From the NCBI GenBank assembly GCA_000002445.1, contig CP000070.1:448001-512000 (forward strand): a DNA stretch of 64,000 nucleotides, written 5' to 3'. The notes under the pieces are model-generated. The model was given only the letters and a program-made list of their open reading frames with translations, had not been told where the DNA came from and ran no database searches. This stretch comes from Trypanosoma brucei. Its lineage: Eukaryota. Of the stretch, positions 17,663 to 58,872 are shown one piece after another. Position 1 is the first letter of the stretch; every line of letters starts with the position of its first letter. The translations under genes and the position numbers were made by a program.

Positions 17663-19735
17663 CTACTCATGACCTCGTTTCCGTGTGAATGCTGGTGCAT
17701 CTCGATATTTTCTCTCTTCATGATACGCTATTATAAGCTCTTTCTGTATCTTGTTATCAAATGTTATTTGATACTGGTCAATACCATCCCAAAATACTTG
17801 TGTTTCCTCAGTTTGTTGCTCAGCATCAGCGGTGTTGTTGTTCACACATCGTTGCCGCGTCTTAATCACACCACCATAAATAGCATTAACATATATCATC
17901 TCCCATGCCATGTTACGAGAAAAGGTATCCCAATCGGAAAAATACCTTGCAATGTTTGTCATAAATTCCTGTAACTCTGAAACACTTGCTTCTTTCCTGT
18001 AATTATCTGTTATTTGAATAAGCACAATAGTCTTTGAGGCAACTCCCAGTTGTGGAAAACCATCCCTCATATCCGCAACCCTTCTAGAGCAATCTTCCAC
18101 AAAGAAAAAGCCATCCACAAAAAGCTTACTCTTTTCCAATGACCTGTAGAGCACTTTGTATTTACAGTTTCCAATTGCATTCTGTCCAGCTTCTGGTAAG
18201 AACTTTTGTTCAAAAATTTGAAACTGTTGTGGGGTCATATCTTTCAGGATGCTACGCTTGTCTTCCGTCTCTCCGAGTCTTCGGAGGTAGTTCAAATGTT
18301 TTGTGACCACACAAAAGACTCTAGGAAAGAGAAGTGAAACCAAAGCCCTTGTTTTAAGCGAGTAGGCTCCGACCTTACCGTATTCCATCATGAATTCATG
18401 GGATGACATACTTTCCGCAACATCTGCAAACAGCGTACAGAGTATCATATTCCCAATGGCAACTGATAGAGGTCTACAGTGGTATGATTCGAGGTTGCCA
18501 TATCTGCTCCTCTCCCGTACAATCTTTATTAACGATTCTGTGAAATGATTACCTTTCCATTCAAAATATTTTCCCATCATCATATCATAGCCATCTCGTC
18601 TATTACAACTGAGACTGCTTAGATACTCTATTACTGCCGCCTCACGACAGCCAGCTCCATTACTGAAAACATAACGAGGCAGCGGCCCCACAAAGTCAAC
18701 ACGTCTCTCCACCAACCTCCACTCATCCTCTAGCTCTTCCTTAACCTTCAAACGAGCATTTTCATCGAGAGTCGTATAGTTGGGAAATAGGGACAGTTTC
18801 TTCCAAGCCACAAACGCCTTAATGTCACGTACGTCATCGCAGTTTAAAATTATCCTTGTTTGTTCCAGGTTCTTCATCCAGTACTTGTAGCGAACTCCAT
18901 CTGGGGGTGCGAGGACAGTCACACCCCAAACATTTCTTGGGATCTCATAAGGCAGAGTTTCCTTACGACTATTAATATCAAAAATAATATGCCCTCTTTT
19001 TTTTAGACGCATTTCTTCAATAACATTAGTGACGTCTTCTCTCTTGTGCAATACAACCCTCCCTTCCTCATTCCCCTTCTTGTTGTATATAAGGTAAGCG
19101 TCCACATCCGTGAAATACACAACGACATCAAGCATTCCTTCATGGAAGTGAAGTAGGGAATGAAGTAAAAATGATCCAACTCCACATGATTTTCCAATAC
19201 CAGATATACCAATGACAATGTGTGTTGGTGGTGTGCTCTCTGTCTTTTCCACCCACCATGCATTTAATTTTCGTTGTATTATATACCACACACGCATCAT
19301 TTCACGACGGACGTAAATATGACCTCCATTTCCCCCATATAAACTAATGAGAGAACATTGAAATCTATCTGAGGGCCAACCCATCTTTGATGTAAGGACA
19401 AAGATCTCCAGGCCAGTGGGTCTCTCCTCAAGTTCCGCATCAACTTCACAATGTTCAGGAGTTATATCCACTTCTTCTTCCGTCCATATGTGTTGTGGTC
19501 TTCCAAAGAATACCTTCATACCGAGTGGCTCTTGATTATAACCTGACATCACATAACTCCACTTCGCATAATACAGAGACTCATATAACTCCTCTTCACG
19601 AGATTTCCTTTTTCCAGTTACCGATGGATTCTGCATCTGTCGTCCACCTTGTTCCTGCACTTCACCTTGTGCACGATTAAACCGTTCGTTAAACACATTC
19701 TGAGTATTTCTCATATTGCCGTTGTTTTGAATCAT
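17663..19735 (-). CDS. array copy 1: RHS-like P-loop NTPase, 690 aa, core type A
   Basis: ATG at 19735-19733 (minus), TAG stop at 17663-17665. Walker A IVIGISGIGKSCG. Q/N/E-rich N-terminus. Family assignment to trypanosome RHS proteins is an inference from size, P-loop and arrayed multigene nature. Confidence 0.6.
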   Translation of the reverse strand: MIQNNGNMRNTQNVFNERFNRAQGEVQEQGGRQMQNPSVTGKRKSREEELYESLYYAKWSYVMSGYNQEPLGMKVFFGRPQHIWTEEEVDITPEHCEVDAELEERPTGLEIFVLTSKMGWPSDRFQCSLISLYGGNGGHIYVRREMMRVWYIIQRKLNAWWVEKTESTPPTHIVIGISGIGKSCGVGSFLLHSLLHFHEGMLDVVVYFTDVDAYLIYNKKGNEEGRVVLHKREDVTNVIEEMRLKKRGHIIFDINSRKETLPYEIPRNVWGVTVLAPPDGVRYKYWMKNLEQTRIILNCDDVRDIKAFVAWKKLSLFPNYTTLDENARLKVKEELEDEWRLVERRVDFVGPLPRYVFSNGAGCREAAVIEYLSSLSCNRRDGYDMMMGKYFEWKGNHFTESLIKIVRERSRYGNLESYHCRPLSVAIGNMILCTLFADVAESMSSHEFMMEYGKVGAYSLKTRALVSLLFPRVFCVVTKHLNYLRRLGETEDKRSILKDMTPQQFQIFEQKFLPEAGQNAIGNCKYKVLYRSLEKSKLFVDGFFFVEDCSRRVADMRDGFPQLGVASKTIVLIQITDNYRKEASVSELQEFMTNIARYFSDWDTFSRNMAWEMIYVNAIYGGVIKTRQRCVNNNTADAEQQTEETQVFWDGIDQYQITFDNKIQKELIIAYHEERKYRDAPAFTRKRGHE

Positions 19736-22268: not shown

Positions 22269-22307
<39 letters not shown>
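22269..22307. repeat. compound (TA)n(GA)n microsatellite present once per array unit, length-variable between units (e.g. 27848-27900 is about 14 bp longer)
   Basis: Direct read: atatatatatatatatatagagagagagagagagaatgg. Found at the equivalent position in every unit with different repeat counts. Confidence 0.9.
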
Positions 22308-23246: not shown

Positions 23247-25319
23247 CTACTCATGACCTCGTTTCCGTGTGAATGCTGGTGCATCTCGATATTTTCTCTC
23301 TTCATGATACGCTATTATAAGCTCTTTCTGTATCTTTTTATCAAATGTTATTTGATACTGGTCAATACCATCCCAAAATACTTGTGTTTCCTCAGTTTGT
23401 TGCTCAGCATCAGCGGTGTTGTTGTTCACACATCGTTGCCGCGTCTTAATCACACCACCATAAATAGCATTAACATATATCATCTCCCATGCCATGTTAC
23501 GAGAAAAGGTATCCCAATCGGAAAAATACCTTGCAATGTTTGTCATAAATTCCTGTAACTCTGAAACACTTGCTTCTTTCCTGTAATTATCTGTTATTTG
23601 AATAAGCACAATAGTCTTTGAGGCAACTCCCAGTTGTGGAAAACCATCCCTCATATCCGCAACCCTTCTAGAGCAATCTTCCACAAAGAAAAAGCCATCC
23701 ACAAAAAGCTTACTCTTTTCCAATGACCTGTAGAGCACTTTGTATTTACAGTTTCCAATTGCATTCTGTCCAGCTTCTGGTAAGAACTTTTGTTCAAAAA
23801 TTTGAAACTGTTGTGGGGTCATATCTTTCAGGATGCTACGCTTGTCTTCCGTCTCTCCGAGTCTTCGGAGGTAGTTCAAATGTTTTGTGACCACACAAAA
23901 GACTCTAGGAAAGAGAAGTGAAACCAAAGCCCTTGTTTTAAGCGAGTAGGCTCCGACCTTACCGTATTCCATCATGAATTCATGGGATGACATACTTTCC
24001 GCAACATCTGCAAACAGCGTACAGAGTATCATATTCCCAATGGCAACTGATAGAGGTCTACAGTGGTATGATTCGAGGTTTCCATATCTGCTCCTCTCCC
24101 GTACAATCTTTATTAACGATTCTGTGAAATGATTACCTTTCCATTCAAAATATTTTCCCATCATCATATCATAGCCATCTCGTCTATTACAACTGAGACT
24201 GCTTAGATACCTTATTACCGCCGCCTCACGACAGCAAGCTCCATTACTGAAAACATAACGAGGCAGCGGCCCCACAACGTCAACACGTCTCTCCACCAAC
24301 CTCCACTCATCCTCTAGTTCTTCCTTAACCTTCAAACGAGCATTTTCATCGAGAGTCGTATAGTTGGGAAATACGGACAGTTTCTTCCAAGCCACAAACG
24401 CCTTAATGTCACGTACGTCATCGCAGTTTAAAATTATCCTTGTTTGTTCCAGGTTCTTCATCCAGTACTTGTAGCGAACTCCATCTGGGGGTGCGAGGAC
24501 AGTCACACCCCAAACATTTCTTGGGATCTCATAAGGCAGAGTTTCCTTAGGACTATTAATATCAAAAATAATATGCCCTCTTTTTTTTAGACGCATTTCT
24601 TCAATAACATTAGTGACGTCTTCTCTCTCGTACAATACAACCCTCCCTTCCTCATTCCCCTTCTTGTTGTATATAAGGTAAGCGTCCACATCCGTGAAAT
24701 ACACAACGACATCAAGCATTCCTTCATGGAAGTGAAGTAGGGAATGAAGTAAAAATGATCCAACTCCACATGATTTTCCAATACCAGATATACCAATGAC
24801 AATGTGTGTTGGTGGTGTGCTCTCTGTCTTTTCCACCCACCATGCATTTAATTTTCGTTGTATTATATACCACACACGCATCATTTCACGACGGACGTAA
24901 ATATGACCTCCATTTCCCCCATATAAACTAATGAGAGAACATTGAAATCCGCATGATGGGTTACATATCTTTGATGTAAGGACAAAGATCTCCAGGCCAG
25001 TGGGTCTCTCCTCAAGTTCCGCATCAACTTCACAATGTTCAGGAGTTATATCCACTTCTTCTTCCGTCCATATGTGTTGTGGTCTTCCAAAGAATACCTT
25101 CATACCGAGTGGCTCTTGATTATAACCTGACATCACATAACTCCACTTCGCATAATACAGAGACTCATATAACTCCTCTTCACGAGATTTCCTTTTTCCA
25201 GTTACCGATGGATTCTGCATCTGTCGTCCACCTCGTTCCTGCACTTCACCTTGTGCACGATTAAACCGTTCGTTAAACACATTCTGAGTATTTCTCATAT
25301 TGCCGTTGTTTTGAATCAT
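23247..25319 (-). CDS. array copy 2: RHS-like P-loop NTPase, 690 aa, core type A with a variant micro-patch (SKICNPSCGF in place of SKMGWPSDRF)
   Basis: Colinear with copy 1. The ~22 bp substituted segment at 24949-24970 partly resembles the reverse complement of the copy-1 sequence. Confidence 0.6.
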   Translation of the reverse strand: MIQNNGNMRNTQNVFNERFNRAQGEVQERGGRQMQNPSVTGKRKSREEELYESLYYAKWSYVMSGYNQEPLGMKVFFGRPQHIWTEEEVDITPEHCEVDAELEERPTGLEIFVLTSKICNPSCGFQCSLISLYGGNGGHIYVRREMMRVWYIIQRKLNAWWVEKTESTPPTHIVIGISGIGKSCGVGSFLLHSLLHFHEGMLDVVVYFTDVDAYLIYNKKGNEEGRVVLYEREDVTNVIEEMRLKKRGHIIFDINSPKETLPYEIPRNVWGVTVLAPPDGVRYKYWMKNLEQTRIILNCDDVRDIKAFVAWKKLSVFPNYTTLDENARLKVKEELEDEWRLVERRVDVVGPLPRYVFSNGACCREAAVIRYLSSLSCNRRDGYDMMMGKYFEWKGNHFTESLIKIVRERSRYGNLESYHCRPLSVAIGNMILCTLFADVAESMSSHEFMMEYGKVGAYSLKTRALVSLLFPRVFCVVTKHLNYLRRLGETEDKRSILKDMTPQQFQIFEQKFLPEAGQNAIGNCKYKVLYRSLEKSKLFVDGFFFVEDCSRRVADMRDGFPQLGVASKTIVLIQITDNYRKEASVSELQEFMTNIARYFSDWDTFSRNMAWEMIYVNAIYGGVIKTRQRCVNNNTADAEQQTEETQVFWDGIDQYQITFDKKIQKELIIAYHEERKYRDAPAFTRKRGHE

Positions 25320-28849: not shown

Positions 28850-30910
28850 TCATTTCCGTGTGAATGCTGGTGCATCTCGATATTTTCTCTCTTCATGATA
28901 CGCTATTATAAGCTCTTTCTGTATCTTTTTATCAAATGTTATTTGATACTGGTCAATACCATCCCAAAATACTTGTGTTTCCTCAGTTTGTTGCTCAGCA
29001 TCAGCGGTGTTGTTGTTCACACATCGTTGCCGCGTCTTAATCACACCACCATAAATAGCATTAACATATATCATCTCCCATGCCATGTTACGAGAAAAGG
29101 TATCCCAATCGGAAAAATACCTTGCAATGTTTGTCATAAATTCCTGTAACTCTGAAACACTTGCTTCTTTCCTGTAATTATCTGTTATTTGAATAAGCAC
29201 AATAGTCTTTGAGGCAACTCCCAGTTGTGGAAAACCATCCCTCATATCCGCAACCCTTCTAGAGCAATCTTCCACAAAGAAAAAGCCATCCACAAAAAGC
29301 TCACTCTCCTCCAATGACCTGTAGAGCACCTTGTATTTACAGTTTCCAATTGCATTCTGTCCAGTTTTTGGTAAGAACTTTTGTTCAAAAATTTGAAACT
29401 GTTGTGGGGTCATATCTTTCAGGATGCTACGCTTGTCTTCCGTCTCTCCGAGTCTTCGGAGGTAGTTCAAATGTTTTGTGACCACACAAAAGACTCTAGG
29501 AAAGAGAAGTGAAACCAAAGCCCTTGTTTTAAGCGAGTAGGCTCCGACCTTACCGTATTCCATCATGAATTCATGGGATGACATACTTTCCGCAACATCT
29601 GCAAACAGCGTACAGAGTATCATATTCCCAATGGCAACTGATAGAGGTCTACAGTGGTATGATTCGAGGTTGCCATATCTGCTCCTCTCCCGTACAATCT
29701 TTATTAACGATTCTGTGAAATGATTACCTTTCCATTCAAAATATTTTCCCATCATCATATCATAGCCATCTCGTCTATTACAACTGAGACTGCTTAGATA
29801 CTCTATTACTGCCGCCTCACGACAGCCAGCTCCATTACTGAAAACATAACGAGGCAGCGGCCCCACAAAGTCAACACGTCTCTCCACCAACCTCCACTCA
29901 TCCTCTAGCTCTTCCTTAACCTTCAAACGAGCATTTTCATCGAGAGTCGTATAGTTGGGAAATAGGGACAGTTTCTTCCAAGCCACAAACGCCTTAATGT
30001 CACGTACGTCATCGCAGTTTAAAATTATCCTTGTTTGTTCCAGGTTCTTCATCCAGTACTTGTAGCGAACTCCATCTGGGGGTGCGAGGACAGTCACACC
30101 CCAAACATTTCTTGGGATCTCATAAGGCAGAGTTTCCTTACGACTATTAATATCAAAAATAATATGCCCTCTTTTTTTTAGACGCATTTCTTCAATAACA
30201 TTAGTGACGTCTTCTCTCTTGTGCAATACAACCCTCCCTTCCTCATTCCCCTTCTTGTTGTATATAAGGTAAGCGTCCACATCCGTGAAATACACAACGA
30301 CATCAAGCATTCCTTCATGGAAGTGAAGTAGGGAATGAAGTAAAAATGATCCAACTCCACATGATTTTCCAATACCAGATATACCAATGACAATGTGTGT
30401 TGGTGGTGTGCTCTCTGTCTTTTCCACCCACCATGCATTTAATTTTCGTTGTATTATATACCACACACGCATCATTTCACGACGGACGTAAATATGACCT
30501 CCATTTCCCCCATATAAACTAATGAGAGAACATTGAAATCTATCTGAGGGCCAACCCATCTTTGATGTAAGGACAAAGATCTCCAGGCCAGTGGGTCTCT
30601 CCTCAAGTTCCGCATCAACTTCACAATGTTCAGGAGTTATATCCACTTCTTCTTCCGTCCATATGTGTTGTGGTCTTCCAAAGAATACCTTCATACCGAG
30701 TGGCTCTTGATTATAACCTGACATCACATAACTCCACTTCGCATAATACAGAGACTCATATAACTCCTCTTCACGAGATTTCCTTTTTCCAGTTACCGAT
30801 GGATTCTGCATCTGTCGTCCACCTTGTTCCTGCACTTCACCTTGTGCACGATTAAACCGTTCGTTAAACACATTCTGAGTATTTCTCATATTGCCGTTGT
30901 TTTGAATCAT
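28850..30910 (-). CDS. array copy 3: RHS-like P-loop NTPase, 686 aa, core type A, early stop removing the last 4 aa
   Basis: CGA to TGA (plus-strand g to a at 28850-28852) ends the protein at ...AFTRK instead of ...AFTRKRGHE. Confidence 0.6.
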   Translation of the reverse strand: MIQNNGNMRNTQNVFNERFNRAQGEVQEQGGRQMQNPSVTGKRKSREEELYESLYYAKWSYVMSGYNQEPLGMKVFFGRPQHIWTEEEVDITPEHCEVDAELEERPTGLEIFVLTSKMGWPSDRFQCSLISLYGGNGGHIYVRREMMRVWYIIQRKLNAWWVEKTESTPPTHIVIGISGIGKSCGVGSFLLHSLLHFHEGMLDVVVYFTDVDAYLIYNKKGNEEGRVVLHKREDVTNVIEEMRLKKRGHIIFDINSRKETLPYEIPRNVWGVTVLAPPDGVRYKYWMKNLEQTRIILNCDDVRDIKAFVAWKKLSLFPNYTTLDENARLKVKEELEDEWRLVERRVDFVGPLPRYVFSNGAGCREAAVIEYLSSLSCNRRDGYDMMMGKYFEWKGNHFTESLIKIVRERSRYGNLESYHCRPLSVAIGNMILCTLFADVAESMSSHEFMMEYGKVGAYSLKTRALVSLLFPRVFCVVTKHLNYLRRLGETEDKRSILKDMTPQQFQIFEQKFLPKTGQNAIGNCKYKVLYRSLEESELFVDGFFFVEDCSRRVADMRDGFPQLGVASKTIVLIQITDNYRKEASVSELQEFMTNIARYFSDWDTFSRNMAWEMIYVNAIYGGVIKTRQRCVNNNTADAEQQTEETQVFWDGIDQYQITFDKKIQKELIIAYHEERKYRDAPAFTRK

Positions 30911-34413: not shown

Positions 34414-36495
34414 CTACTCATGACCTCGTTTCCGTGTGAATGCTGGTGCATCTCGATATTTTCTCTCTTCATGATACGCTATTATAAGCTCTTTCTGTAT
34501 CTTTTTATCAAATGTTATTTGATACTGGTCAATACCATCCCAAAATACTTGTGTTTCCTCAGTTTGTTGCTCAGCATCAGCGGTGTTGTTGTTCACACAT
34601 CGTTGCCGCGTCTTAATCACACCACCATAAATAGCATTAACATATATCATCTCCCATGCCATGTTACGAGAAAAGGTATCCCAATCGGAAAAATACCTTG
34701 CAATGTTTGTCATAAATTCCTGTAACTCTGAAACACTTGCTTCTTTCCTGTAATTATCTGTTATTTGAATAAGCACAATAGTCTTTGAGGCAACTCCCAG
34801 TTGTGGAAAACCATCCCTCATATCCGCAACCCTTCTAGAGCAATCTTCCACAAAGAAAAAGCCATCCACAAAAAGCTTACTCTCCTCCAATGACCTGTAG
34901 AGCACTTTGTATTTACAGTTTCCAATTGCATTCTGTCCAGTTTTTGGCAAGAACTTTTGTTCAAAAATTTGAAACTGTTGTGGGGTCATATCTTTCAGGA
35001 TGCTACGCTTGTCTTCCGTCTCTCCGAGTCTTCGGAGGTAGTTCAAATGTTTTGTGACCACACAAAAGACTCTAGGAAAGAGAAGTGAAACCAAAGCCCT
35101 TGTTTTAAGCGAGTAGGCTCCGACCTTACCGTATTCCATCATGAATTCATGGGATGACATACTTTCCGCAACATCTGCAAACAGCGTACAGAGTATCATA
35201 TTCCCAATGGCAACTGATAGAGGTCTACAGTGGTATGATTCGAGGTTGCCATATCTGCTCCTCTCCCGTACAATCTTTATTAACGATTCTGTGAAATGAT
35301 TACCTTTCCATTCAAAATATTTTCCCATCATCATATCATAGCCATCTCGTCTATTACAACTGAGACTGCTTAGATACCCTATTACTGCCGCCTCACGACA
35401 GCCAGCTCCATTACTGAAAACATAACGAGGCAGCGGCCCCACAAAGTCAACACGTCTCTCCACCAACCTCCACTCATCCTCTAGCTCTTCCTTAACCTTC
35501 AAACGAGCATTTTCATCGAGAGTCGTATAGTTGGGAAATAGGGACAGTTTCTTCCAAGCCACAAACGCCTTAATGTCACGTACGTCATCGCAGTTTAAAA
35601 TTATCCTTGTTTGTTCCAGGTTCTTCATCCAGTACTTGTAGCTAACTCCATCTGGGGGTGCGAGGACAGTCACACCCCAAACATTTCTTGGGATCTCATA
35701 AGGCAGAGTTTCCTTACGACTATTAATATCAAAAATAATATGCCCTCTTTTTTTTAGACGCATTTCCTTAATAACATTAGTGACGTCTTCTCTCTTGTAC
35801 AATACAACCCTCCCTTCCTCATTCCCCTTCTTGTTGTATATAAGGTAAGCTTTGGAACCCGTGAAAAACACAACGACATCAAGCATTCCTTCATGGAAGT
35901 GAAGTAGGGAATGAAGTAAAAATGATCCAACTCCACATGATTTTCCAATACCAGATATACCAATGACAATGTGTGTTGGTGGTGTGCTCTCTGTCTTTTC
36001 CACCCACCATGCATTTAATTTTCGTTGTATTATATACCACACACGCATCATTTCACGACGGATGTAGACATTATTGTCCAATATCCCAATTCTCTGATAT
36101 AAACTAATGAGAGAACATTGAAATCTATCTGAGGGCCAACCCATCTTTGATGTAAGGACAAAGATCTCCAGGCCAGTGGGTCTCTCCTCAAGTTCCGCAT
36201 CAACTTCACAATGTTCAGGAGTTATATCAACTTCTTCTTCCGTCCATATGTGTTGTGGTCTTCCAAAGAATACCTTCATACCGAGTGGCTCTTGATTATA
36301 ACCTGACATCACATAACTCCACTTCGCATAATACAGAGACTCATATAACTCCTCTTCACGAGATTTCCTTTTTCCAGTTACCGATGGATTCTGCATCTGT
36401 CGTCCACCTCGTTCCTGCACTTCACCTTGTGCACGATTAAACCGTTCGTTAAACACATTCTGAGTATTTCCCATATTGCCGTTGTTTTGAATCAT
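34414..36495 (-). CDS. array copy 4: RHS-like P-loop NTPase, 693 aa, type A core with short B-derived tracts (QRIGILDNNVYIRR; VVVFFTGSKAY)
   Basis: Colinear ORF. A +3 aa insertion-type patch matches the B-type sequence on its 5' side and the A-type on its 3' side. Confidence 0.6.
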   Translation of the reverse strand: MIQNNGNMGNTQNVFNERFNRAQGEVQERGGRQMQNPSVTGKRKSREEELYESLYYAKWSYVMSGYNQEPLGMKVFFGRPQHIWTEEEVDITPEHCEVDAELEERPTGLEIFVLTSKMGWPSDRFQCSLISLYQRIGILDNNVYIRREMMRVWYIIQRKLNAWWVEKTESTPPTHIVIGISGIGKSCGVGSFLLHSLLHFHEGMLDVVVFFTGSKAYLIYNKKGNEEGRVVLYKREDVTNVIKEMRLKKRGHIIFDINSRKETLPYEIPRNVWGVTVLAPPDGVSYKYWMKNLEQTRIILNCDDVRDIKAFVAWKKLSLFPNYTTLDENARLKVKEELEDEWRLVERRVDFVGPLPRYVFSNGAGCREAAVIGYLSSLSCNRRDGYDMMMGKYFEWKGNHFTESLIKIVRERSRYGNLESYHCRPLSVAIGNMILCTLFADVAESMSSHEFMMEYGKVGAYSLKTRALVSLLFPRVFCVVTKHLNYLRRLGETEDKRSILKDMTPQQFQIFEQKFLPKTGQNAIGNCKYKVLYRSLEESKLFVDGFFFVEDCSRRVADMRDGFPQLGVASKTIVLIQITDNYRKEASVSELQEFMTNIARYFSDWDTFSRNMAWEMIYVNAIYGGVIKTRQRCVNNNTADAEQQTEETQVFWDGIDQYQITFDKKIQKELIIAYHEERKYRDAPAFTRKRGHE

Positions 36496-40001: not shown

Positions 40002-42083
40002 CTACTCATGACCTCTTTTCCGTGTGAATGCTGGTGCATCTCGATATTTTCTCTCTTCATGATACGCTATTATAAGCTCTTTCTGTATCTTTTTATCAAA
40101 TGTTATTTGATACTGGTCAATACCATCCCAAAATACTTGTGTTTCCTCAGTTTGTTGCTCAGCATCAGCGGTGTTGTTGTTCACACATCGTTGCCGCGTC
40201 TTAATCACACCACCATAAATAGCATTAACATATATCATCTCCCATGCCATGTTACGAGAAAAGGTATCCCAATCGGAAAAATACCTTGCAATGTTTGTCA
40301 TAAATTCCTGTAACTCTGAAACACTTGCTTCTTTCCTGTAATTATCTGTTATTTGAATAAGCACAATAGTCTTTGAGGCAACTCCCAGTTGTGGAAAACC
40401 ATCCCGCATATCCGCAACCCTTCTAGAGCAATCTTCCACAAAGAAAAAGCCATCCACAAAAAGCTTACTCTCCTCCAATGACCTGTAGAGCACTTTGTAT
40501 TTACAGTTTCCAATTGCATTCTGTCCAGCTTCTGGCAAGAACTTTTGTTCAAAAATTTGAAACTGTTGTGGGGTCATATCTTTCAGGATGCTACGCTTGT
40601 CTTCCGTCTCTCCGAGTCTTCGGAGGTAGTTCAAATGTTTTGTGACCACACAAAAGACTCTAGGAAAGAGAAGTGAAACCAAAGCCCTTGTTTTAAGCGA
40701 GTAGGCTCCGACCTTACCGTATTCCATCATGAATTCATGGGATGACATACTTTCCGCAACATCTGCAAACAGCGTACAGAGTATCATATTCCCAATGGCA
40801 ACTGATAGAGGTCTACAGTGGTATGATTCGAGGTTGCCATATCTGCTCCCCTCCCGTACAATCTTTATTAACGATTCTGTGAAATCATTACCTTTCCATT
40901 CAAAATATTTTCCCATCATCATATCATAGCCATCTCGTCTATTACAACTGAGACTGCTTAGATACCCTATTACTGCCGCCTCACGACAGCCAGCTCCATT
41001 ACTGAAAACATAACGAGGCAGCGGCCCCACAAAGTCAACACGTCTCTCCACCAACCTCCACTCATCCTCTAGCTCTTCCTTAACCTTCAAACGAGCATTT
41101 TCATCGAGAGTCGTATAGTTGGGAAATACGGACAGTTTCTTCCAAGCCACAAACGCCTTAATGTCACGTACGTCATCGCAGTTTAAAATTATCCTTGTTT
41201 GTTCCAGGTTCTTCATCCAGTACTTGTAGCGAACTCCATCTGGGGGTGCGAGGACAGTCACACCCCAAACATTTCTTGGGATCTCATAAGGCAGAGTTTC
41301 CTTACGACTATTAATATCAAAAATAATATGCCCTCTTTTTTTTAGACGCATTTCCTTAATAACATTAGTGACGTCTTTTCTCTTGTACAATACAACCCTC
41401 CCTTCCTCATTCCCCTTCTTGTTGTATATAAGGTAAGCTTTGGAACCCGTGAAATACACAACGACATCAAGCATTCCTTCATGGAAGTGAAGTAGGGAAT
41501 GAAGTAAAAATGATCCAACTCCACATGATTTTCCAATACCAGATATACCAATGACAATGTGTGTTGGTGGTGTGCTCTCTGTCTTTTCCACCCACCATGC
41601 ATTTAATTTTCGTTGTATTATATACCACACACGCATCATTTCACGACGGATGTAGACATTATTATCCAATATCCCAATTCTCTGATATAAACTAATGAGA
41701 GAACATTGAAATCCGCATGATGGGTTACATATCTTTGATGTAAGGACAAAGATCTCCAGGCCAGTGGGTCTCTCCTCAAGTTCCGCATCAACTTCACAAT
41801 GTTCAGGAGTTATATCCACTTCTTCTTCCGTTCATATGTGTTGTGGTCTTCCAAAGAATACCTTCATACCGAGTGGCTCTTGATTATAACCTGACATCAC
41901 ATAACTCCACTTCGCATAATACAGAGACTCATATAACTCCTCTTCACGAGATTTGCTTTTTCCAGTTACCGATGGATTCTGCATCTGCCGTCCACCTTGT
42001 TCATGCACTTCACCTTGTGCACGATTAAACCGTTCGTTAAACACATTCTGAGTATTTCTCATATTGCCGTTGTTTTGAATCAT
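40002..42083 (-). pseudogene. array copy 5: RHS-like gene interrupted by a nonsense mutation (Trp84 TGG to TGA at 41832-41834); the rest of the reading frame is intact
   Basis: The track splits it into an 83-aa ORF (41832-42083) and a 605-aa ORF (40002-41819) that begins at a GTG. Other copies have cca/TGG at the same site. The first downstream in-frame ATG lies ~65 codons further on, in ...REMMRVWY..., ahead of the P-loop. Confidence 0.55.
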
Positions 42084-45612: not shown

Positions 45613-47688
45613 CTACTCATGACCTCGTTTCCGTGTGAATGCTGGTGCATCTCGATATTTTCTCTCTTCATGATACGCTATTATAAGCTCTTTCTGTATC
45701 TTGTTATCAAATGTTATTTGATACTGGTCAATACCATCCCAAAATACTTGTGTTTCCTCAGTTTGTTGCTCAGCATCAGCGGTGTTGTTGTTCACACATC
45801 GTTGCCGCGTCTTAATCACACCACCATAAATAGCATTAACATATATCATCTCCCATGCCATGTTACGAGAAAAGGTATCCCAATCGGAAAAATACCTTGC
45901 AATGTTTGTCATAAATTCCTGTAACTCTGAAACACTTGCTTCTTTCCTGTAATTATCTGTTATTTGAATAAGCACAATAGTCTTTGAGGCAACTCCCAGT
46001 TGTGGAAAACCATCCCTCATATCCGCAACCCTTCTAGAGCAATCTTCCACAAAGAAAAAGCCATCCACAAAAAGCTTACTCTCCTCCAATGACCTGTAGA
46101 GCACCTTGTATTTACAGTTTCCAATTGCATTCTGTCCAGTTTTTGGTAAGAACTTTTGTTCAAAAATTTGAAACTGTTGTGGGGTCATATCTTTCAGGAT
46201 GCTACGCTTGTCTTCCGTCTCTCCGAGTCTTCGGAGGTAGTTCAAATGTTTTGTGACCACACAAAAGACTCTAGGAAAGAGAAGTGAAACCAAAGCCCTT
46301 GTTTCAAGCGAGTAGGCTCCGACCTTACCGTATACGCTTTCACTATGTTTCTCAACCATCAGTGTTGCAACAGTTGAAAACAGCGTACAGAGTATCATAT
46401 TCCCAATGGCAACTGATAGAGGTCTACAGTGGTATGATTCGAGGTCGTCATATCTGCCCCCCTCCCGTACAATCTTCACTAAACTGTGAACCACTTTTTC
46501 ACTTTTCCACGTAAAATATTTTTCCAGAATCGTTTCATACTCTTCTTTCTTCTCATTTTCTAGGCTTCTTAGGTAATCACTGATATCCTGCAGCCGGTTG
46601 GTGTAACTTTGCTTGCTGAAAACATAACGAGGCAGCGGCCCCACAACGTCAACACGTCTCTCCACTAACCTCCACTCATCCTCTAGCTCTTCCTTAACCT
46701 TCGCACGAGCATTTTCATCGAGAGTCGTATAGTTGGGAAATAGGGACAGTTTCTTCCAGGCCACAAACGCCTTAATGTCACGTACGTCATCGCAGTTTAA
46801 AATCACATTCCAACTGAAATAGTCCTTCTCCCAATGTTTATAATAGTATGTATCCGGAGTGTTGAGTGTAGTTATTCCCCACCCAAGATATTGGGTCTCA
46901 TAAGGCGGAGTCTCATCAGGTCCATCAGTATCAAAAATAATATGCCCTCTTTTTTTCAAACGCATTTCTTTAATAACATTAGTGACGTCTTTTCTCTTGT
47001 ACAATACAACCCTCCCTTCCTCATTCCCCTTCTTGTTGTATATAAGGTAGGCGTCCACATCCGTGAAATACACAACGACATCAAGCATTCCTTCATGGAA
47101 GTGAAGTAGGGAATGAAGTAAAAATGATCCAACTCCACATGATTTTCCAGTCCCTGGAATACCAATGACAATGTGTGTTGGTGGTGTGCTCTCTGTCTTT
47201 TGCACCCACCATGCATTTAATTTTCGTTGTATTATATACCACACACGCATCATTTCACGACGGATGTAGACATTATTGTCCATTATACCACTTTCATCAT
47301 TGATACCTAATTGAAACGTAGCTGATGGCCAACCCATCTTTGATGTAAGGACAAAGATCTCCAGGCCAGTGGGTCTCTCCTCAAGTTCCGCATCAACTTC
47401 ACAATGTTCAGGAGTTATATCCACTTCTTCTTCCGTCCATATGTGTTGTGGTCTTCCAAAGAATACCTTCATACCGAGTGGCTCTTGATTATAACCTGAC
47501 ATCACATAACTCCACTTCGCATAATACAGAGACTCATATAACTCCTCTTCACGAGATTTCCTTTTTCCAGTTACCGATGGATTCTGCATCTGTCGTCCAC
47601 CTCGTTCCTGCACTTCACCTTGTGCACGATTAAACCGTTCGTTAAACACATTCTGAGTATTTCCCATATTGCCGTTGTTTTGAATCAT
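45613..47688 (-). CDS. array copy 6: RHS-like P-loop NTPase, 691 aa, core type B (Walker A IVIGIPGTGKS)
   Basis: The central ~345 codons are replaced by a diverged sequence (e.g. FDTDGPDETPPYETQYLGWGITTLNTPDTYYYKHW...; SKQSYTNRLQDISDYLRSLENEKKEEYETILEKYFTWKSEKVVHSLVK). Flanks are identical to type A copies. Confidence 0.6.
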   Translation of the reverse strand: MIQNNGNMGNTQNVFNERFNRAQGEVQERGGRQMQNPSVTGKRKSREEELYESLYYAKWSYVMSGYNQEPLGMKVFFGRPQHIWTEEEVDITPEHCEVDAELEERPTGLEIFVLTSKMGWPSATFQLGINDESGIMDNNVYIRREMMRVWYIIQRKLNAWWVQKTESTPPTHIVIGIPGTGKSCGVGSFLLHSLLHFHEGMLDVVVYFTDVDAYLIYNKKGNEEGRVVLYKRKDVTNVIKEMRLKKRGHIIFDTDGPDETPPYETQYLGWGITTLNTPDTYYYKHWEKDYFSWNVILNCDDVRDIKAFVAWKKLSLFPNYTTLDENARAKVKEELEDEWRLVERRVDVVGPLPRYVFSKQSYTNRLQDISDYLRSLENEKKEEYETILEKYFTWKSEKVVHSLVKIVREGGRYDDLESYHCRPLSVAIGNMILCTLFSTVATLMVEKHSESVYGKVGAYSLETRALVSLLFPRVFCVVTKHLNYLRRLGETEDKRSILKDMTPQQFQIFEQKFLPKTGQNAIGNCKYKVLYRSLEESKLFVDGFFFVEDCSRRVADMRDGFPQLGVASKTIVLIQITDNYRKEASVSELQEFMTNIARYFSDWDTFSRNMAWEMIYVNAIYGGVIKTRQRCVNNNTADAEQQTEETQVFWDGIDQYQITFDNKIQKELIIAYHEERKYRDAPAFTRKRGHE

Positions 47689-51214: not shown

Positions 51215-53287
51215 CTACTCATGACCTCGTTTCCGTGTGAATGCTGGTGCATCTCGATATTTTCTCTCTTCATGATACGCTATTATAAGCTCTTTCTGTA
51301 TCTTGTTATCAAATGTTATTTGATACTGGTCAATACCATCCCAAAATACTTGTGTTTCCTCAGTTTGTTGCTCAGCATCAGCGGTGTTGTTGTTCACACA
51401 TCGTTGCCGCGTCTTAATCACACCACCATAAATAGCATTAACATATATCATCTCCCATGCCATGTTACGAGAAAAGGTATCCCAATCGGAAAAATACCTT
51501 GCAATGTTTGTCATAAATTCCTGTAACTCTGAAACACTTGCTTCTTTCCTGTAATTATCTGTTATTTGAATAAGCACAATAGTCTTTGAGGCAACTCCCA
51601 GTTGTCGAAAACCATCCCGCATATCCGCAACCCTTCTAGAGCAATCTTCCACAAAGAAAAAGCCATCCACAAAAAGCTTACTCTCTTCAAATGACCTGTA
51701 GAGCACCTTGTATTTACAGTTTCCAATTGCATTCTGTCCAGTTTTTGGTAAGAACTTTTGTTCAAAAATTTGAAACTGTTGTGGGGTCATATCTTTCAGG
51801 ATGCTACGCTTGTCTTCCGTCTCTCCGAGTCTTCGGAGGTAGTTCAAATGTTTTGTGACCACACAAAAGACTCTAGGAAAGAGAAGTGAAACCAAAGCCC
51901 TTGTTTCAAGCGAGTAGGCTCCGACCTTACCGTATACGCTTTCACTATGTTTCTCAACCATCAGTGTTGCAACAGTTGAAAACAGCGTACAGAGTATCAT
52001 ATTCCCAATGGCAACTGATAGAGGTCTACAGTGGTATGATTCGAGGTTGCCATATCCGCTCCCCTCCCGTACAATCTTCACTAAACTGTGAACCACTTTT
52101 TCACTTTTCCACGTAAAATATTTTTCCAGAATCGTTTCATACTCTTCTTTCTTCTCATTTTCTAGGCTTCTTAGGTAATCACTGATATCCTGCAGCCGGT
52201 TGGTGTAACTTTGCTTGCTGAAAACATAACGAGGCAGCGGCCCCACAACGTCAACACGTCTCTCCACTAACCTCCACTCATCCTCTAGCTCTTCCTTAAC
52301 CTTCGCACGAGCATTTTCATCGAGAGTCGTATAGTTGGGAAATAGGGACAGTTTCTTCCAGGCCACAAACGCCTTAATGTCACGTACGTCATCGCAGTTT
52401 AAAATCACATTCCAACTTAAATAGTCCTTCTCCCAATGTTCATAATAGTGTGTATCCGGAGTGTTGAGTGTAGTTATTCCCCACCCAAGATATTGGGTCT
52501 CATAAGGCGGAGTCTCATCAGGTCCATCAGTATCAAAAATAATATGCCCTCTTTTTTTAAAACGCATTTCTTCAATAACATTAGTGACGTCTTTTCTCTT
52601 GTACAATACAACCCTCCCTTCCTCATTCCCCTTCTTGTTGTATATAAGGTAAGCTTTGGCATCCGTGAAATACACAACGACATCAAGCATTCCTTCATGG
52701 AAGTGAAGTAGGGAATGAAGTAAAAATGATCCAACTCCACATGATTTTCCAGTCCCTGGAATACCAATGACAATGTGTGTTGGTGGTCTCTCTGTCTTTT
52801 GCACCCACCATGCATTTAATTTTTGTTGTATTATATACCACACACGCATCATTTCACGACGGATGTAGACATTATTGTCCATTATACCACTTTCATCATT
52901 GATACCTAATTGAAACGTAGCTGATGGCCAACCCATCTTTGATGTAAGGACAAAGATCTCCAGGCCAGTGGGTCTCTCCTCAAGTTCCGCATCAACTTCA
53001 CAATGTTCAGGAGTTATATCAACTTCTTCTTCCGTCCATATGTGTTGTGGTCTTCCAAAGAATACCTTCATACCGAGTGGCTCTTGATTATAACCTGACA
53101 TCACATAACTCCACTTCGCATAATACAGAGACTCATATAACTCCTCTTCACGAGATTTCCTTTTTCCAGTTACCGATGGATTCTGCATCTGTCGTCCACC
53201 TCGTTCCTGCACTTCACCTTGTGCACGATTAAACCGTTCGTTAAACACATTCTGAGTATTTCTCATATTGCCGTTGTTTTGAATCAT
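51215..53287 (-). CDS. array copy 7: RHS-like P-loop NTPase, 690 aa, core type B, with a 1-codon deletion (QKTERPPTH)
   Basis: Same type-B core as copy 6, with a 3-bp in-frame deletion near 52790. Confidence 0.6.
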   Translation of the reverse strand: MIQNNGNMRNTQNVFNERFNRAQGEVQERGGRQMQNPSVTGKRKSREEELYESLYYAKWSYVMSGYNQEPLGMKVFFGRPQHIWTEEEVDITPEHCEVDAELEERPTGLEIFVLTSKMGWPSATFQLGINDESGIMDNNVYIRREMMRVWYIIQQKLNAWWVQKTERPPTHIVIGIPGTGKSCGVGSFLLHSLLHFHEGMLDVVVYFTDAKAYLIYNKKGNEEGRVVLYKRKDVTNVIEEMRFKKRGHIIFDTDGPDETPPYETQYLGWGITTLNTPDTHYYEHWEKDYLSWNVILNCDDVRDIKAFVAWKKLSLFPNYTTLDENARAKVKEELEDEWRLVERRVDVVGPLPRYVFSKQSYTNRLQDISDYLRSLENEKKEEYETILEKYFTWKSEKVVHSLVKIVREGSGYGNLESYHCRPLSVAIGNMILCTLFSTVATLMVEKHSESVYGKVGAYSLETRALVSLLFPRVFCVVTKHLNYLRRLGETEDKRSILKDMTPQQFQIFEQKFLPKTGQNAIGNCKYKVLYRSFEESKLFVDGFFFVEDCSRRVADMRDGFRQLGVASKTIVLIQITDNYRKEASVSELQEFMTNIARYFSDWDTFSRNMAWEMIYVNAIYGGVIKTRQRCVNNNTADAEQQTEETQVFWDGIDQYQITFDNKIQKELIIAYHEERKYRDAPAFTRKRGHE

Positions 53288-56808: not shown

Positions 56809-58872
56809 TCATTTCCGTGTGAATGCTGGTGCATCTCGATATTTTCTCTCTTCATGATACGCTATTATAAGCTCTTTCTGTATCTTGTTATCAAATGTTA
56901 TTTGATACTGGTCAATACCATCCCAAAATACTTGTGTTTCCTCAGTTTGTTGCTCAGCATCAGCGGTGTTGTTGTTCACACATCGTTGCCGCGTCTTAAT
57001 CACACCACCATAAATAGCATTAACATATATCATCTCCCATGCCATGTTACGAGAAAAGGTATCCCAATCGGAAAAATACCTTGCAATGTTTGTCATAAAT
57101 TCCTGTAACTCTGAAACACTTGCTTCTTTCCTGTAATTATCTGTTATTTGAATAAGCACAATAGTCTTTGAGGCAACTCCCAGTTGTGGAAAACCATCCC
57201 TCATATCCGCAACCCTTCTAGAGCAATCTTCCACAAAGAAAAAGCCATCCACAAAAAGCTTACTCTCCTCCAATGACCTGTAGAGCACCTTGTATTTACA
57301 GTTTCCAATTGCATTCTGTCCAGTTTTTGGTAAGAACTTTTGTTCAAAAATTTGAAACTGTTGTGGGGTCATATCTTTCAGGATGCTACGCTTGTCTTCC
57401 GTCTCTCCGAGTCTTCGGAGGTAGTTCAAATGTTTTGTGACCACACAAAAGACTCTAGGAAAGAGAAGTGAAACCAAAGCCCTTGTTTCAAGCGAGTAGG
57501 CTCCGACCTTACCGTATACGCTTTCACTATGTTTCTCAACCATCAGTGTTGCAACAGTTGAAAACAGCGTACAGAGTATCATATTCCCAATGGGAACTGA
57601 TAGAGGTCTACAGTGGTATGATTCGAGGTCGTCATATCTGCCCCCCTCCCGTACAATCTTCACTAAACTGTGAACCACTTTTTCACTTTTCCACGTAAAA
57701 TATTTTTCCAGAATCGTTTCATACTCTTCTTTCTTCTCATTTTCTAGGCTTCTTAGGTAATCACTGATATCCTGCAGCCGGTTGGTGTAACTTTGCTTGC
57801 TGAAAACATAACGAGGCAGCGGCCCCACAACGTCAACACGTCTCTCCACCAACCTCCACTCATCCTCTAGCTCTTCCTTAACCTTCGCACGAGCATTTTC
57901 ATCGAGAGTCGTATAGTTGGGAAATAGGGACAGTTTCTTCCAGGCCACAAACGCCTTAATGTCACGTACGTCATCGCAGTTTAAAATCACATTCCAACTT
58001 AAATAGTCCTTCTCCCAATGTTCATAATAGTGTGTATCCGGAGTGTTGAGTGTAGTTATTCCCCACCCAAGATATTGGGTCTCATAAGGCGGAGTCTCAT
58101 CAGGTCCATCAGTATCAAAAATAATATGCCCTCTTTTTTTCAAACGCATTTCTTTAATAACATTAGTGACGTCTTTTCTCTTGTACAATACAACCCTCCC
58201 TTCCTCATTCCCCTTCTTGTTGTATATAAGGTAAGCTTTGGCATCCGTGAAATACACAACGACATCAAGCATTCCTTCATGGAAGTGAAGTAGGGAATGA
58301 AGTAAAAATGATCCAACTCCACATGATTTTCCAGTCCCTGGAATACCAATGATAATGTGTGTTGGTGGTGTGCTCTCTGTCTTTTGCACCCACCATTCTT
58401 TTAATTTTTGTTGTATTATATACCACACACGCATCATTTCACGACGGATGTAGACATTATTGTCCATTATACCACTTTCATCATTGATACCTAATTGAAA
58501 CGTAGCTGATGGCCAACCCATCTTTGATGTAAGGACAAAGATCTCCAGGCCAGTGGGTCTCTCCTCAAGTTCCGCATCAACTTCACAATGTTCAGGAGTT
58601 ATATCCACTTCTTCTTCCGTCCATATGTGTTGTGGTCTTCCAAAGAATACCTTCATACCGAGTGGCTCTTGATTATAACCTGACATCACATAACTCCACT
58701 TCGCATAATACAGAGACTCATATAACTCCTCTTCACGAGATTTCCTTTTTCCAGTTACCGATGGATTCTGCATCTGTCGTCCACCTCGTTCCTGCACTTC
58801 ACCTTGTGCACGATTAAACCGTTCGTTAAACACATTCTGAGTATTTCTCATATTGCCGTTGTTTTGAATCAT
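56809..58872 (-). CDS. array copy 8: RHS-like P-loop NTPase, 687 aa, core type B, early-stop C-terminus (ends AFTRK)
   Basis: Type-B core, plus the same CGA to TGA change as copy 3 (tca at 56809-56811). Confidence 0.6.
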   Translation of the reverse strand: MIQNNGNMRNTQNVFNERFNRAQGEVQERGGRQMQNPSVTGKRKSREEELYESLYYAKWSYVMSGYNQEPLGMKVFFGRPQHIWTEEEVDITPEHCEVDAELEERPTGLEIFVLTSKMGWPSATFQLGINDESGIMDNNVYIRREMMRVWYIIQQKLKEWWVQKTESTPPTHIIIGIPGTGKSCGVGSFLLHSLLHFHEGMLDVVVYFTDAKAYLIYNKKGNEEGRVVLYKRKDVTNVIKEMRLKKRGHIIFDTDGPDETPPYETQYLGWGITTLNTPDTHYYEHWEKDYLSWNVILNCDDVRDIKAFVAWKKLSLFPNYTTLDENARAKVKEELEDEWRLVERRVDVVGPLPRYVFSKQSYTNRLQDISDYLRSLENEKKEEYETILEKYFTWKSEKVVHSLVKIVREGGRYDDLESYHCRPLSVPIGNMILCTLFSTVATLMVEKHSESVYGKVGAYSLETRALVSLLFPRVFCVVTKHLNYLRRLGETEDKRSILKDMTPQQFQIFEQKFLPKTGQNAIGNCKYKVLYRSLEESKLFVDGFFFVEDCSRRVADMRDGFPQLGVASKTIVLIQITDNYRKEASVSELQEFMTNIARYFSDWDTFSRNMAWEMIYVNAIYGGVIKTRQRCVNNNTADAEQQTEETQVFWDGIDQYQITFDNKIQKELIIAYHEERKYRDAPAFTRK

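What the first reader, a model, noticed from the sequence alone, without database searches (positions are those of the whole stretch)
19300..19400. Hyper-variable micro-patch at codons ~117-140 with at least three alleles, including a partly inverted 20-bp tract
Just upstream of the P-loop, codons ~118-131 (SKMGWPSDRFQCSL) and ~137-142 (GGNGGH) occur in different combinations. Copies 1 and 3 read SKMGWPSDRFQCSLISLYGGNGGHIYVRR. Copy 2 reads SKICNPSCGFQCSLISLYGGNGGHIYVRR. Copy 4 reads SKMGWPSDRFQCSLISLYQRIGILDNNVYIRR, and copy 5 reads SKICNPSCGFQCSLISLYQRIGILDNNVYIRR. Copies 6-8 read SKMGWPSATFQLGINDESGIMDNNVYIRR. At DNA level copy 2 (24949-24970, ccgcatgatgggttacatatc) differs from copy 1 (19365-19386, ctatctgagggccaacccatc) by a replacement. 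The replacement contains gatgggtt, the reverse complement of the aacccatc it displaces, which suggests a micro-inversion or templated repair. Copy 4 is B-like on its left and A-like on its right. In described RHS genes the retroelement (ingi/RIME) insertion hot spot lies in the 5' part of the coding sequence. This patch could be the footprint of that fragile site, but that is speculative.
Basis: partly seen in the sequence, partly recalled or inferred. Interest (0 to 1): 0.55.

Follow-up and report, generated by a model that had tools for sequence, protein, structure and literature searches.

The report
Mosaic hypervariable loop in RHS7 genes
The patch is real: it is the most variable ~80 bp of a tandemly repeated Trypanosoma brucei RHS7 gene, where old, very different sequence cassettes are reshuffled between copies. 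It is not the retrotransposon insertion hot spot, which lies 46 codons downstream, and it is not a micro-inversion.

Summary
The window is T. brucei brucei TREU927 chromosome 7. It holds nine tandem RHS7 genes on the minus strand, in units of about 5.59 kb.

**Observation: confirmed.**
- Codons 117-142 (copy 1: 19310-19387) vary at 48 of 80 alignment columns.
- The preceding 353 coding columns vary at 7.
- This is the most variable 100 bp of the whole unit (pi 0.26). The 3.5-kb spacer has pi of mostly 0.2-2%.
- The patch is the first of at least four such islands. The others are codons 254-295, 358-414 and 437-451.

**Structure of the variation.**
- The patch splits into four sub-blocks of 2-3 alleles each, seen in nine combinations.
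- Four-gamete tests pass for three sub-block pairs, so short-tract gene conversion is reshuffling them.
- Three haplotypes recur in T. b. gambiense DAL972, two shown identical at DNA level and the third matched as protein, so they are old.
- Codons 123-138 are a hypervariable, indel-prone loop across the whole RHS family.
- The ICNPSCG allele replaces the family-invariant W120.

**Interpretation: mostly wrong.**
- Three RIME-RHS junctions map 9-10 codons after the P-loop GKS. That corresponds to window 19160-19171, 138 bp downstream of the patch, in an invariant stretch.
- No target-site-duplication-like repeats flank the patch.
- An in-place inversion lowers mismatches only from 10 to 9.
- The 8-mer reverse-complement match is not significant (P about 0.05-0.1).

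The parts
17663..19735 (-). RHS7 gene copy 1 (690 aa; RHS_N 51-166, RHSP P-loop domain 173-484). Identical to TREU927 XP_845819.
19310..19387 (-). The hypervariable patch in copy 1, codons 117-142 (haplotype K-b1-c1-d1: KMGWPSDRFQCSLISLYGGNGGHIYV).
19364..19387 (-). Sub-blocks a+b, codons 117-124. Codon 117 is K or M. The b alleles are MGWPSDR (b1), ICNPSCG (b2) and MGWPSAT (b3). The block contains the family-invariant GWP motif.
19349..19360 (-). Sub-block c, codons 126-129. Alleles are CSL (c1), GGL or GRL (c2, seen in gambiense and copy 9) and LGIN (c3).
19310..19336 (-). Sub-block d, codons 134-142. Alleles are GGNGGHIYV (d1), QRIGILDNNVYI (d2, 9 nt longer) and GIMDNNVYI (d3).
24894..24971 (-). 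Patch in copy 2 (K-b2-c1-d1, KICNPSCGF...GGNGGH).
30485..30562 (-). Patch in copy 3 (same haplotype as copy 1).
36061..36147 (-). Patch in copy 4 (K-b1-c1-d2, recombinant).
41649..41735 (-). Patch in copy 5 (K-b2-c1-d2, recombinant). Copy 5 is a pseudogene.
47263..47340 (-). Patch in copy 6 (type II, K-b3-c3-d3).
52862..52939 (-). Patch in copy 7 (type II).
58447..58524 (-). Patch in copy 8 (type II).
19187..19210 (-). P-loop (Walker A) GISGIGKS, codons 176-183 of copy 1.
19160..19171 (-). Position homologous to the ingi/RIME insertion hot spot and its 12-bp target-site duplication (codons 189-192, FLLH). Unoccupied here and invariant in all nine copies.
18851..18976 (-). Second divergence island, codons 254-295 (copy 1 vs copy 6: pS 0.58, pN 0.46).
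18494..18664 (-). Third divergence island, codons 358-414.
18383..18427 (-). Fourth divergence island, codons 437-451.

Best explanation
The patch is the first, smallest and most finely subdivided of several islands of deep divergence in the coding sequence of the tandem RHS7 genes of T. brucei chromosome 7.

It covers two things:
- A surface loop of the RHS_N domain (about codons 123-138, between strand 109-115 and strand 139-142). This loop is hypervariable and length-variable in every RHS subfamily.
- The adjoining 7-8 codons that hold the GWP motif. Here one allele (ICNPSCG) is a radical clustered replacement.

The alleles are old cassettes, as different at synonymous as at non-synonymous sites. 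Concerted evolution (unequal crossing-over and gene conversion) keeps the rest of the 5.6-kb unit almost identical. Short conversion tracts that begin and end in the identical flanks, some as short as 12 bp, move the cassettes independently between copies. This produces the observed combinations.

**Shown:** the variability profile, the haplotype combinations, their sharing between subspecies, the family-wide loop variability, and the position of the retroelement hot spot elsewhere.

**Inferred:** that conversion rather than recurrent mutation made the combinations, that the loop is solvent-exposed, and that the islands persist because they are tolerated or favoured.
For: **Identity of the locus.**
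- Pfam RHS_N plus RHSP.
- Six copies are identical to T. b. brucei TREU927 chromosome 7 proteins and the partial copy 9 lies within a seventh.
- RHS7 genes are listed as Tb927.7.2000-2030.

**Variability.**
- 48 of 80 variable columns in the patch against 7 of 353 upstream.
- The patch bin has the highest pi of the unit, 0.256, while most of the spacer is 0.002-0.02.

**Age of the alleles.**
- Copy 1 vs copy 6: pS 0.30 and pN 0.39 in the patch, pS 0.42-0.58 in the other islands, pS 0-0.085 between islands.
- The K-b2-c1-d1 and K-b3-c3-d3 haplotypes are present with identical DNA in gambiense DAL972 loci L002, L004 and L005. The M-b1-c2-d2 haplotype is shared as protein.

**Reshuffling.**
- Nine combinations of the four sub-blocks are seen.
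- All four gametes are present for a|b, b|d and c|d. The c and d blocks are separated by only 12 identical nucleotides, ATTAGTTTATAT.
- The d2 allele is type II-like over its right 27 nt, with 2 mismatches.
- The larger islands also reassort between copies in DAL972.

**Loop.**
- In 75 RHS representatives, positions 123-138 have entropy around 3-3.7 bits, among the highest in the stretch examined (residues 95-200), and positions 127-133 have 45-68% gaps.
- The flanking positions L114, S116, W120, P121, E145, R148 and W150 are at least 95% conserved.
- The AlphaFold2 model (pLDDT 75.7, pTM 0.73) puts 126-135 in a low-confidence coil between strands 109-115 and 139-142.
Against: - No formal recombination test (PHI, GENECONV) was run. 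The K/M site is a single SNP that could be recurrent.
- Both reference assemblies are Sanger-era assemblies of a tandem array, so some rarer haplotype combinations could be consensus chimeras. Only three haplotypes are confirmed in both.
- pN/pS is about 1 in the patch on small counts (4.5 synonymous, 24.5 non-synonymous differences). This does not distinguish relaxed constraint from diversifying selection.
- The origin of the b2 allele (10 substitutions in 21 nt, no donor in the window) is not explained by conversion from any sequence I could see.
- Solvent exposure of the loop rests on a predicted model that has low confidence exactly there.
Confidence: 0.75

Rival explanations
1. The patch is the scar of the ingi/RIME insertion hot spot that gives the RHS family its name. 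On this view, repeated insertion, excision or repair at a fragile site left variable sequence.
For: - The patch lies in the 5' part of the coding sequence, close to the P-loop, as the hot spot is loosely described.
Against: - Three junctions mapped here (L003:21613, L003:6398, protein P0058) all lie 9-10 codons after GKS, with the target-site duplication CTGTTATACA over the LLLY codons.
- That position is window 19160-19171 in copy 1, 138 bp from the patch and in an invariant stretch.
- No RIME sequence occurs in the window or in any RHS7 locus.
- No flanking direct repeats.
- Non-LTR retroposons are not known to excise (established knowledge).
Confidence: 0.03
2. The ICNPSCG (b2) allele arose from the MGWPS allele by a micro-inversion or by hairpin/foldback-templated synthesis that copied the complement of ATGATGGGTT.
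For: - An 8-nt reverse-complement match to K-type alleles and a 10-nt match (AACCCATCAT vs ATGATGGGTT) to M-type alleles of the same locus.
- The 10-mer has P = 0.003-0.01 under three null models.
- The change is a length-neutral cluster of 10 substitutions in 21 nt, which point mutation explains poorly.
Against: - An in-place inversion improves the fit only from 10 to 9 mismatches.
- The 10-mer is displaced by 9 nt from its putative template.
- Five of the eight bases (CCATC) are also present in direct register in the b3 and b1' alleles.
- The 10-mer test is post hoc.
- The b2 allele is not itself a palindrome, which a foldback product should be.
Confidence: 0.1
3. The combinations are assembly artefacts. 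Consensus building over a collapsed or mis-joined tandem array mixed reads from different copies.
For: - Nearly identical 5.6-kb units are hard to assemble.
- Copy number differs widely between assemblies: 9 or more copies in TREU927, about 31 genes in DAL972, 3 patches in T. equiperdum.
Against: - The whole patch is 78-87 bp, well inside a single Sanger read.
- Two full haplotypes are identical at DNA level in two independent assemblies, and a third is shared as protein.
- Open reading frames are maintained through every combination.
Confidence: 0.07
4. The islands are targets of active diversification. This could be positive diversifying selection or a directed hypermutation or cassette mechanism acting on a stage-specific protein, rather than passive persistence of old alleles.
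For: - Diversity is confined to coding islands while 3.5 kb of non-coding spacer is homogenised.
- pN is at least pS in the patch and in island 437-451.
- RHS7 expression is restricted to the tsetse salivary-gland stage.
Against: - pS is as elevated as pN, so the islands are old rather than fast-evolving at the protein level only.
- Few alleles per block (2-3), and they are shared between subspecies.
- No template repeat, reverse transcriptase or other mutator feature in the unit. The spacer holds no ORF of 80 aa or more other than short ones abutting the next copy's stop codon.
Confidence: 0.1

Closest known systems
Retrotransposon hot spot (RHS) multigene family of Trypanosoma brucei, subfamily RHS7 (Bringaud et al. 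2002; Florini et al. 2019, PMC6393297)
   Same: - Same Pfam architecture (RHS_N plus RHSP P-loop).
- Six window copies are identical to annotated TREU927 chromosome 7 RHS proteins and the partial copy 9 lies within a seventh.
- Conserved N-terminal/central region with an ATP/GTP-binding motif.
   Different: - Nothing differs at the gene level; these are annotated genes.
- The micro-mosaic at codons 117-142 and the allele that replaces GW of the GWP motif are not mentioned in the papers I could read.
ingi/RIME insertion hot spot of RHS genes (12-bp target-site duplication, 5 codons after the P-loop motif)
   Same: - Lies in the same conserved N-terminal/central region of the protein.
   Different: - It is 46 codons downstream of the patch.
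- That position is unoccupied and invariant in all copies here.
- The RHS7 sequence there (TTTTTACTTCAT) matches the RHS1-type duplicated sequence (CTACTGTTATAC) at 6 of 12 positions, by hand count.
Recombination-generated mosaicism in trypanosome multigene families (T. cruzi RHS, PMC7563717; segmental conversion in mosaic VSG genes)
   Same: - Short segments exchanged between paralogues.
- Breakpoints in conserved stretches.
- In T. cruzi RHS, events are concentrated in the amino-terminal coding region.
   Different: - Here the exchange is within one homogeneous tandem array.
- The blocks are very small (7-12 codons), separated by as little as 12 bp of identity.
- There is no known link to antigenic variation. 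RHS proteins studied so far are nuclear.
AAA+/STAND-type P-loop NTPases (ORC/Cdc6, NLR, Apaf-1)
   Same: - The predicted fold of the central domain gives weak Foldseek matches to ORC/Cdc6 and NLR NTPase modules (E = 1e-4 to 1e-2).
   Different: - TM-scores are low (0.16-0.23 normalised to the query).
- No sequence-level match to any solved structure.
- This is a resemblance only and is not a membership claim.

Membership tests
RHS protein family (Pfam PF20445 RHS_N + PF07999 RHSP) | Both Pfam domains above their gathering scores | tested here: met
   RHSP 181.7-200.5 bits (cut-off 25). RHS_N 110-115 bits (cut-off 21)..
RHS protein family | Walker A ATP/GTP-binding motif in the conserved region | tested here: met
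   GISGIGKS or GIPGTGKS at codons 176-183. G181 is invariant in 56 family members.
RHS7 subfamily of T. brucei | Chromosome 7 tandem genes annotated RHS7 (Tb927.7.20xx) | tested here: met
   Six window copies are identical to TREU927 XP_845819/20/22/23/24/25, and the partial copy 9 lies within XP_845826, all on the 2.2-Mb contig. RHS7 genes are listed as Tb927.7.2000.2020 and .2030. The link between XP and Tb927 numbers was not checked directly.
ingi/RIME insertion hot spot | Retroelement junctions, or the homologous target site, lie at the feature | tested here: not met
   Three junctions map 9-10 codons after GKS. That is window 19160-19171, 138 bp from the patch.
ingi/RIME insertion hot spot | 12-bp target-site duplication or retroelement remnants flanking the feature | tested here: not met
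   No direct repeats flank the patch. No RIME 5' end in the window or in the RHS7 loci.
Micro-inversion | One allele equals the other with a segment reverse-complemented in place | tested here: not met
   The best in-place inversion leaves 9 of 24 mismatches, against 10 for the direct comparison.
Gene-conversion mosaic in a tandem array | All four combinations of adjacent multi-site alleles present (four-gamete test) | tested here: met
   Four gametes for b|d and c|d (complex alleles) and for a|b (a SNP)..
Gene-conversion mosaic in a tandem array | Flanks homogenised relative to the exchanged blocks | tested here: met
   Spacer pi is mostly 0.002-0.02 and pS between islands is 0-0.085, against pS 0.3-0.58 inside the islands.
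Gene-conversion mosaic in a tandem array | Statistical support from a formal recombination test and single-molecule confirmation of haplotypes | not tested
   PHI and GENECONV were not run. No long reads are available in these tools.

The most novel reading that the evidence does not exclude
The RHS7 array may keep a small set of ancient, highly divergent coding cassettes at four islands. One of them removes the family-invariant Trp of the GWP motif. The array would reshuffle these cassettes by very short conversion tracts, giving a combinatorial repertoire of a salivary-gland-stage-specific AAA+/STAND-like nuclear protein that is maintained by selection for diversity. Separately, the ICNPSCG allele may have been created by foldback-templated synthesis from the neighbouring ATGATGGGTT.
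Probability: 0.12. Interest if true: 0.55.

Novelty: new member of a known kind. Interest (0 to 1): 0.3.

Why it matters
- It corrects a tempting mis-assignment. The variable patch next to the P-loop is not the retroelement hot spot that names the family. The hot spot is pinned to codons 189-192 of these genes.
- It shows that diversity in the RHS7 array is confined to a few coding islands inside an otherwise homogenised 5.6-kb repeat. This is a clean natural example for measuring conversion-tract lengths in T. brucei, with breakpoints inside 12 bp of identity.
- It flags a surface loop and a GWP-motif variant as candidates for functional differences between RHS7 paralogues, whose role in the tsetse salivary-gland stage is unknown.
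- Beyond that, it is ordinary multigene-family behaviour.

Tried and rejected
- **Bringaud et al. 2002** could not be read by DOI or by two PMC ids. I mapped the hot spot from sequence instead.
- **The look-up of encoding contigs** found nothing for the two TREU927 chromosome 2 proteins I looked up, P0013 and P0015. I used T. b. gambiense and T. equiperdum records.
- **The first AlphaFold2 run**, with 21 sequences, gave pLDDT below 50 over residues 58-145 and was unusable for the patch. A 56-sequence alignment fixed this.
- **Donor search for the b2 tract in the window**, with up to 3 mismatches on both strands, found only the two b2 copies themselves.
- **Compensated frameshift between type I and type II alleles.** I considered this after a hand alignment at 15 of 22 matches. 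The nucleotide alignments are explained equally well by in-frame 9-nt indels, so I dropped it.
- **ORF fragments beginning at query residue 185-187** among family representatives looked like a hot-spot signature. They start at a conserved Met right after GKS in T. cruzi-type sequences, so they are not independent evidence.
- **A review of T. cruzi retrotransposons** added nothing on the RHS site.
Full report
**What the window is.**
Nine ORFs of about 690 aa lie on the minus strand from 17.6 kb to the end of the window, spaced 5.56-5.61 kb apart. Each has the Pfam domains RHS_N (residues 51-166) and RHSP (173-484) far above threshold. Six copies are identical to annotated T. brucei brucei TREU927 proteins XP_845819/20/22/23/24/25, on a 2.2-Mb contig, which is chromosome 7. 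The partial ninth copy lies within XP_845826. Published tables list Tb927.7.2000-2030 as RHS7. This subfamily was added after the original six, and its transcripts are restricted to the tsetse salivary-gland stage. Upstream, on the plus strand, are FYVE, protein kinase, glycine dehydrogenase, LRR and GDA1/CD39 genes. The same flank is seen in T. b. gambiense and T. equiperdum.

**Checking the observation.**
The DNA strings are at the stated places to within one base. In a nucleotide alignment of the copies, the variable block is sharply bounded:
- It spans 80 columns, of which 48 vary. In copy 1 this is 19310-19387, codons 117-142.
- It is preceded by 353 coding columns with only 7 variable sites.
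- It is followed by 30 invariant columns.

Aligning eight whole units shows that the 100-bp bin containing the patch has the highest mean pairwise difference of the entire 5.65-kb repeat (0.256). Most of the 3.5-kb AT-rich spacer is 0.002-0.02. So the patch is real and well beyond background. It is not unique, though. Islands of the same density lie at codons 254-295, 358-414 and 437-451, with smaller ones elsewhere.

**Anatomy of the patch.**
I added DNA from three loci of the T. b. gambiense DAL972 array and extracted the patch from every copy. It resolves into four sub-blocks:

| Sub-block | Codons | Alleles |
|---|---|---|
| a | 117 | K or M |
| b | 118-124 | MGWPSDR (b1), ICNPSCG (b2), MGWPSAT (b3) |
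| c | 126-129 | CSL (c1), GGL/GRL (c2), LGIN (c3) |
| d | 134-142 | GGNGGHIYV (d1), QRIGILDNNVYI (d2), GIMDNNVYI (d3) |

Nine combinations occur. All four gametes are present for a|b, b|d and c|d. Blocks c and d are separated by only 12 identical nucleotides. The d2 allele of copies 4 and 5 is a hybrid. Its left part continues the type I sequence, and its right 27 nt differ from the type II sequence of copies 6-8 at two positions.

Three haplotypes are shared between TREU927 and DAL972. K-b2-c1-d1 and K-b3-c3-d3 have identical DNA, and M-b1-c2-d2 is shared as protein. The alleles therefore predate the split of these subspecies and are not sequencing noise. T. equiperdum has only three patches, all type II. 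The larger islands also reassort among DAL972 copies.

**Age versus rate.**
Nei-Gojobori counts between copy 1 and copy 6:

| Region | pS | pN |
|---|---|---|
| Patch | 0.30 | 0.39 |
| Other islands | 0.42-0.58 | 0.41-0.65 |
| Between islands | 0-0.085 | not summarised |

Synonymous divergence is therefore as high as non-synonymous. The islands are old, deeply diverged cassettes embedded in a homogenised repeat. They are not sites where only the protein changes fast.

**Family context and structure.**
In an alignment of 75 RHS representatives from several Trypanosoma species:
- L114, S116, W120 (97%), P121 (96%), E145, R148 and W150 are nearly invariant.
- Positions 123-138 have entropy around 3-3.7 bits, among the highest in the stretch examined (residues 95-200).
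- Positions 127-133 are gapped in 45-68% of sequences.

In a 56-sequence alignment only S116, W120, P121 and G181 are invariant.

An AlphaFold2 model built on that alignment (mean pLDDT 75.7, pTM 0.73) places strand 109-115, then a low-confidence coil at 126-135, then strand 139-142 and helix 144-162. The 3' two-thirds of the patch is thus a family-wide variable loop. The 5' third is normally conserved, and the ICNPSCG allele replaces G119 and the invariant W120. That allele sits in intact ORFs in copy 2 and in at least four gambiense genes.

No solved structure matches by sequence. Foldseek gives only weak ORC/Cdc6 and NLR-type AAA+/STAND hits to the P-loop domain.

**The retroelement hot spot.**
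The primary paper was not available. A later paper that cites it states that the ATP/GTP motif lies five codons upstream of the insertion site. I tested this directly.

In gambiense locus L003, an RHS pseudogene is split by about 0.5 kb. The junction reads GGTATTGGTAAATCG TTTTCAGTGGGATCC CTACTGTTATACA | CCCTGGCGATGCC...(RIME)...A10 | TTCTGTTATACAAACTACTGCAT. This is a 12-bp target-site duplication over the LLLY codons that start five codons after GKS. A second RIME in the same locus is joined at its 3' end to an RHS at the same position. A database protein, P0058, is an RHS N-half reading into RIME after GKSCGLGLFFTSF.

All three junctions map to codons 189-192 of RHS7, window 19160-19171 in copy 1. 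That is 138 bp, or 46 codons, downstream of the patch, in a stretch with no variable column. The RIME 5' end is absent from the window and from every RHS7 locus fetched. No direct repeats flank the patch. The fragile-site reading is refuted.

**The inversion.**
The 8-nt reverse-complement match exists. However, random replacements of the 21-nt block reach 8 nt in 4.5-10% of trials. Five of the eight bases (CCATC) are also present in direct register in other alleles. Reverse-complementing any single segment in place reduces mismatches to b2 only from 10 to 9 of 24.

Against the M-type alleles the match grows to 10 nt (AACCCATCAT versus ATGATGGGTT; P = 0.003-0.01). This comparison is post hoc, the match is displaced by 9 nt, and b2 is not itself palindromic. 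A templated origin remains possible but unproven. No donor for b2 exists in the window.

**Conclusion.**
The best explanation is short-tract gene conversion reshuffling old allelic cassettes at a tolerant surface loop and its neighbour, inside an array otherwise homogenised by concerted evolution. This behaviour is known for trypanosome multigene families, including T. cruzi RHS. I therefore file it as a new member of a known kind with modest interest.

The unexplained residue is the origin and persistence of the allele that removes the invariant tryptophan.

Noticed in passing
window 41832-41834 (copy 5, CDS about 40002-42083): Copy 5 is a pseudogene by a single nonsense change, W84 TGG to TGA. 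It also has three private missense changes in the otherwise invariant 5' region (Q27H, R29Q, R43S). It still carries a recombinant patch haplotype (b2-d2).
   Followed up: yes
window 19736-23246 and every inter-CDS spacer: The 3.5-kb spacer is AT-rich (about 31% GC) and is far more uniform between units (pi mostly 0.2-2%) than the central coding region (up to 26%). This is the reverse of what purifying selection alone would give.
   Followed up: partly
L006/L007 (T. equiperdum CM010678.1, 706956-734588), against the window and DAL972 FN554970.1 (about 425-560 kb): Array size differs greatly between assemblies: 9 or more copies in TREU927, about 31 annotated genes or fragments in DAL972, and only three patches (two called genes) in T. 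equiperdum, all type II. This could be real contraction or assembly collapse.
   Followed up: partly
window 14993-17663: The RHS7 array (minus strand) converges on the plus-strand housekeeping cluster (FYVE, kinase, GcvP, LRR, GDA1/CD39). The array therefore starts at a convergent strand-switch region, and the flank is syntenic in gambiense and equiperdum.
   Followed up: partly
L003:5895-6398 and L003:21613-22118 (T. b. gambiense FN554974.1): Two about 0.5-kb RIME copies are associated with RHS pseudogenes. One has an intact 12-bp target-site duplication. The other has RHS sequence only on its 3' side, implying a later rearrangement at the element.
   Followed up: partly
copy 1 protein, residues 173-484 (model ma6e264cf701d): The predicted fold of the RHS P-loop domain gives weak matches to ORC/Cdc6 and NLR/Apaf-1 type AAA+/STAND NTPases (Foldseek E = 1e-4 to 1e-2, low TM). 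No solved homologue is found by sequence.
   Followed up: no
window copies 6-8, codons 254-295, 358-414 and 437-451: By eye, type II island sequences (for example PPYETQYLGWGITTLNTPDT.YY.HWEKD) look closer to the consensus of other RHS subfamilies than type I does. This suggests type II is nearer the ancestral state.
   Followed up: no
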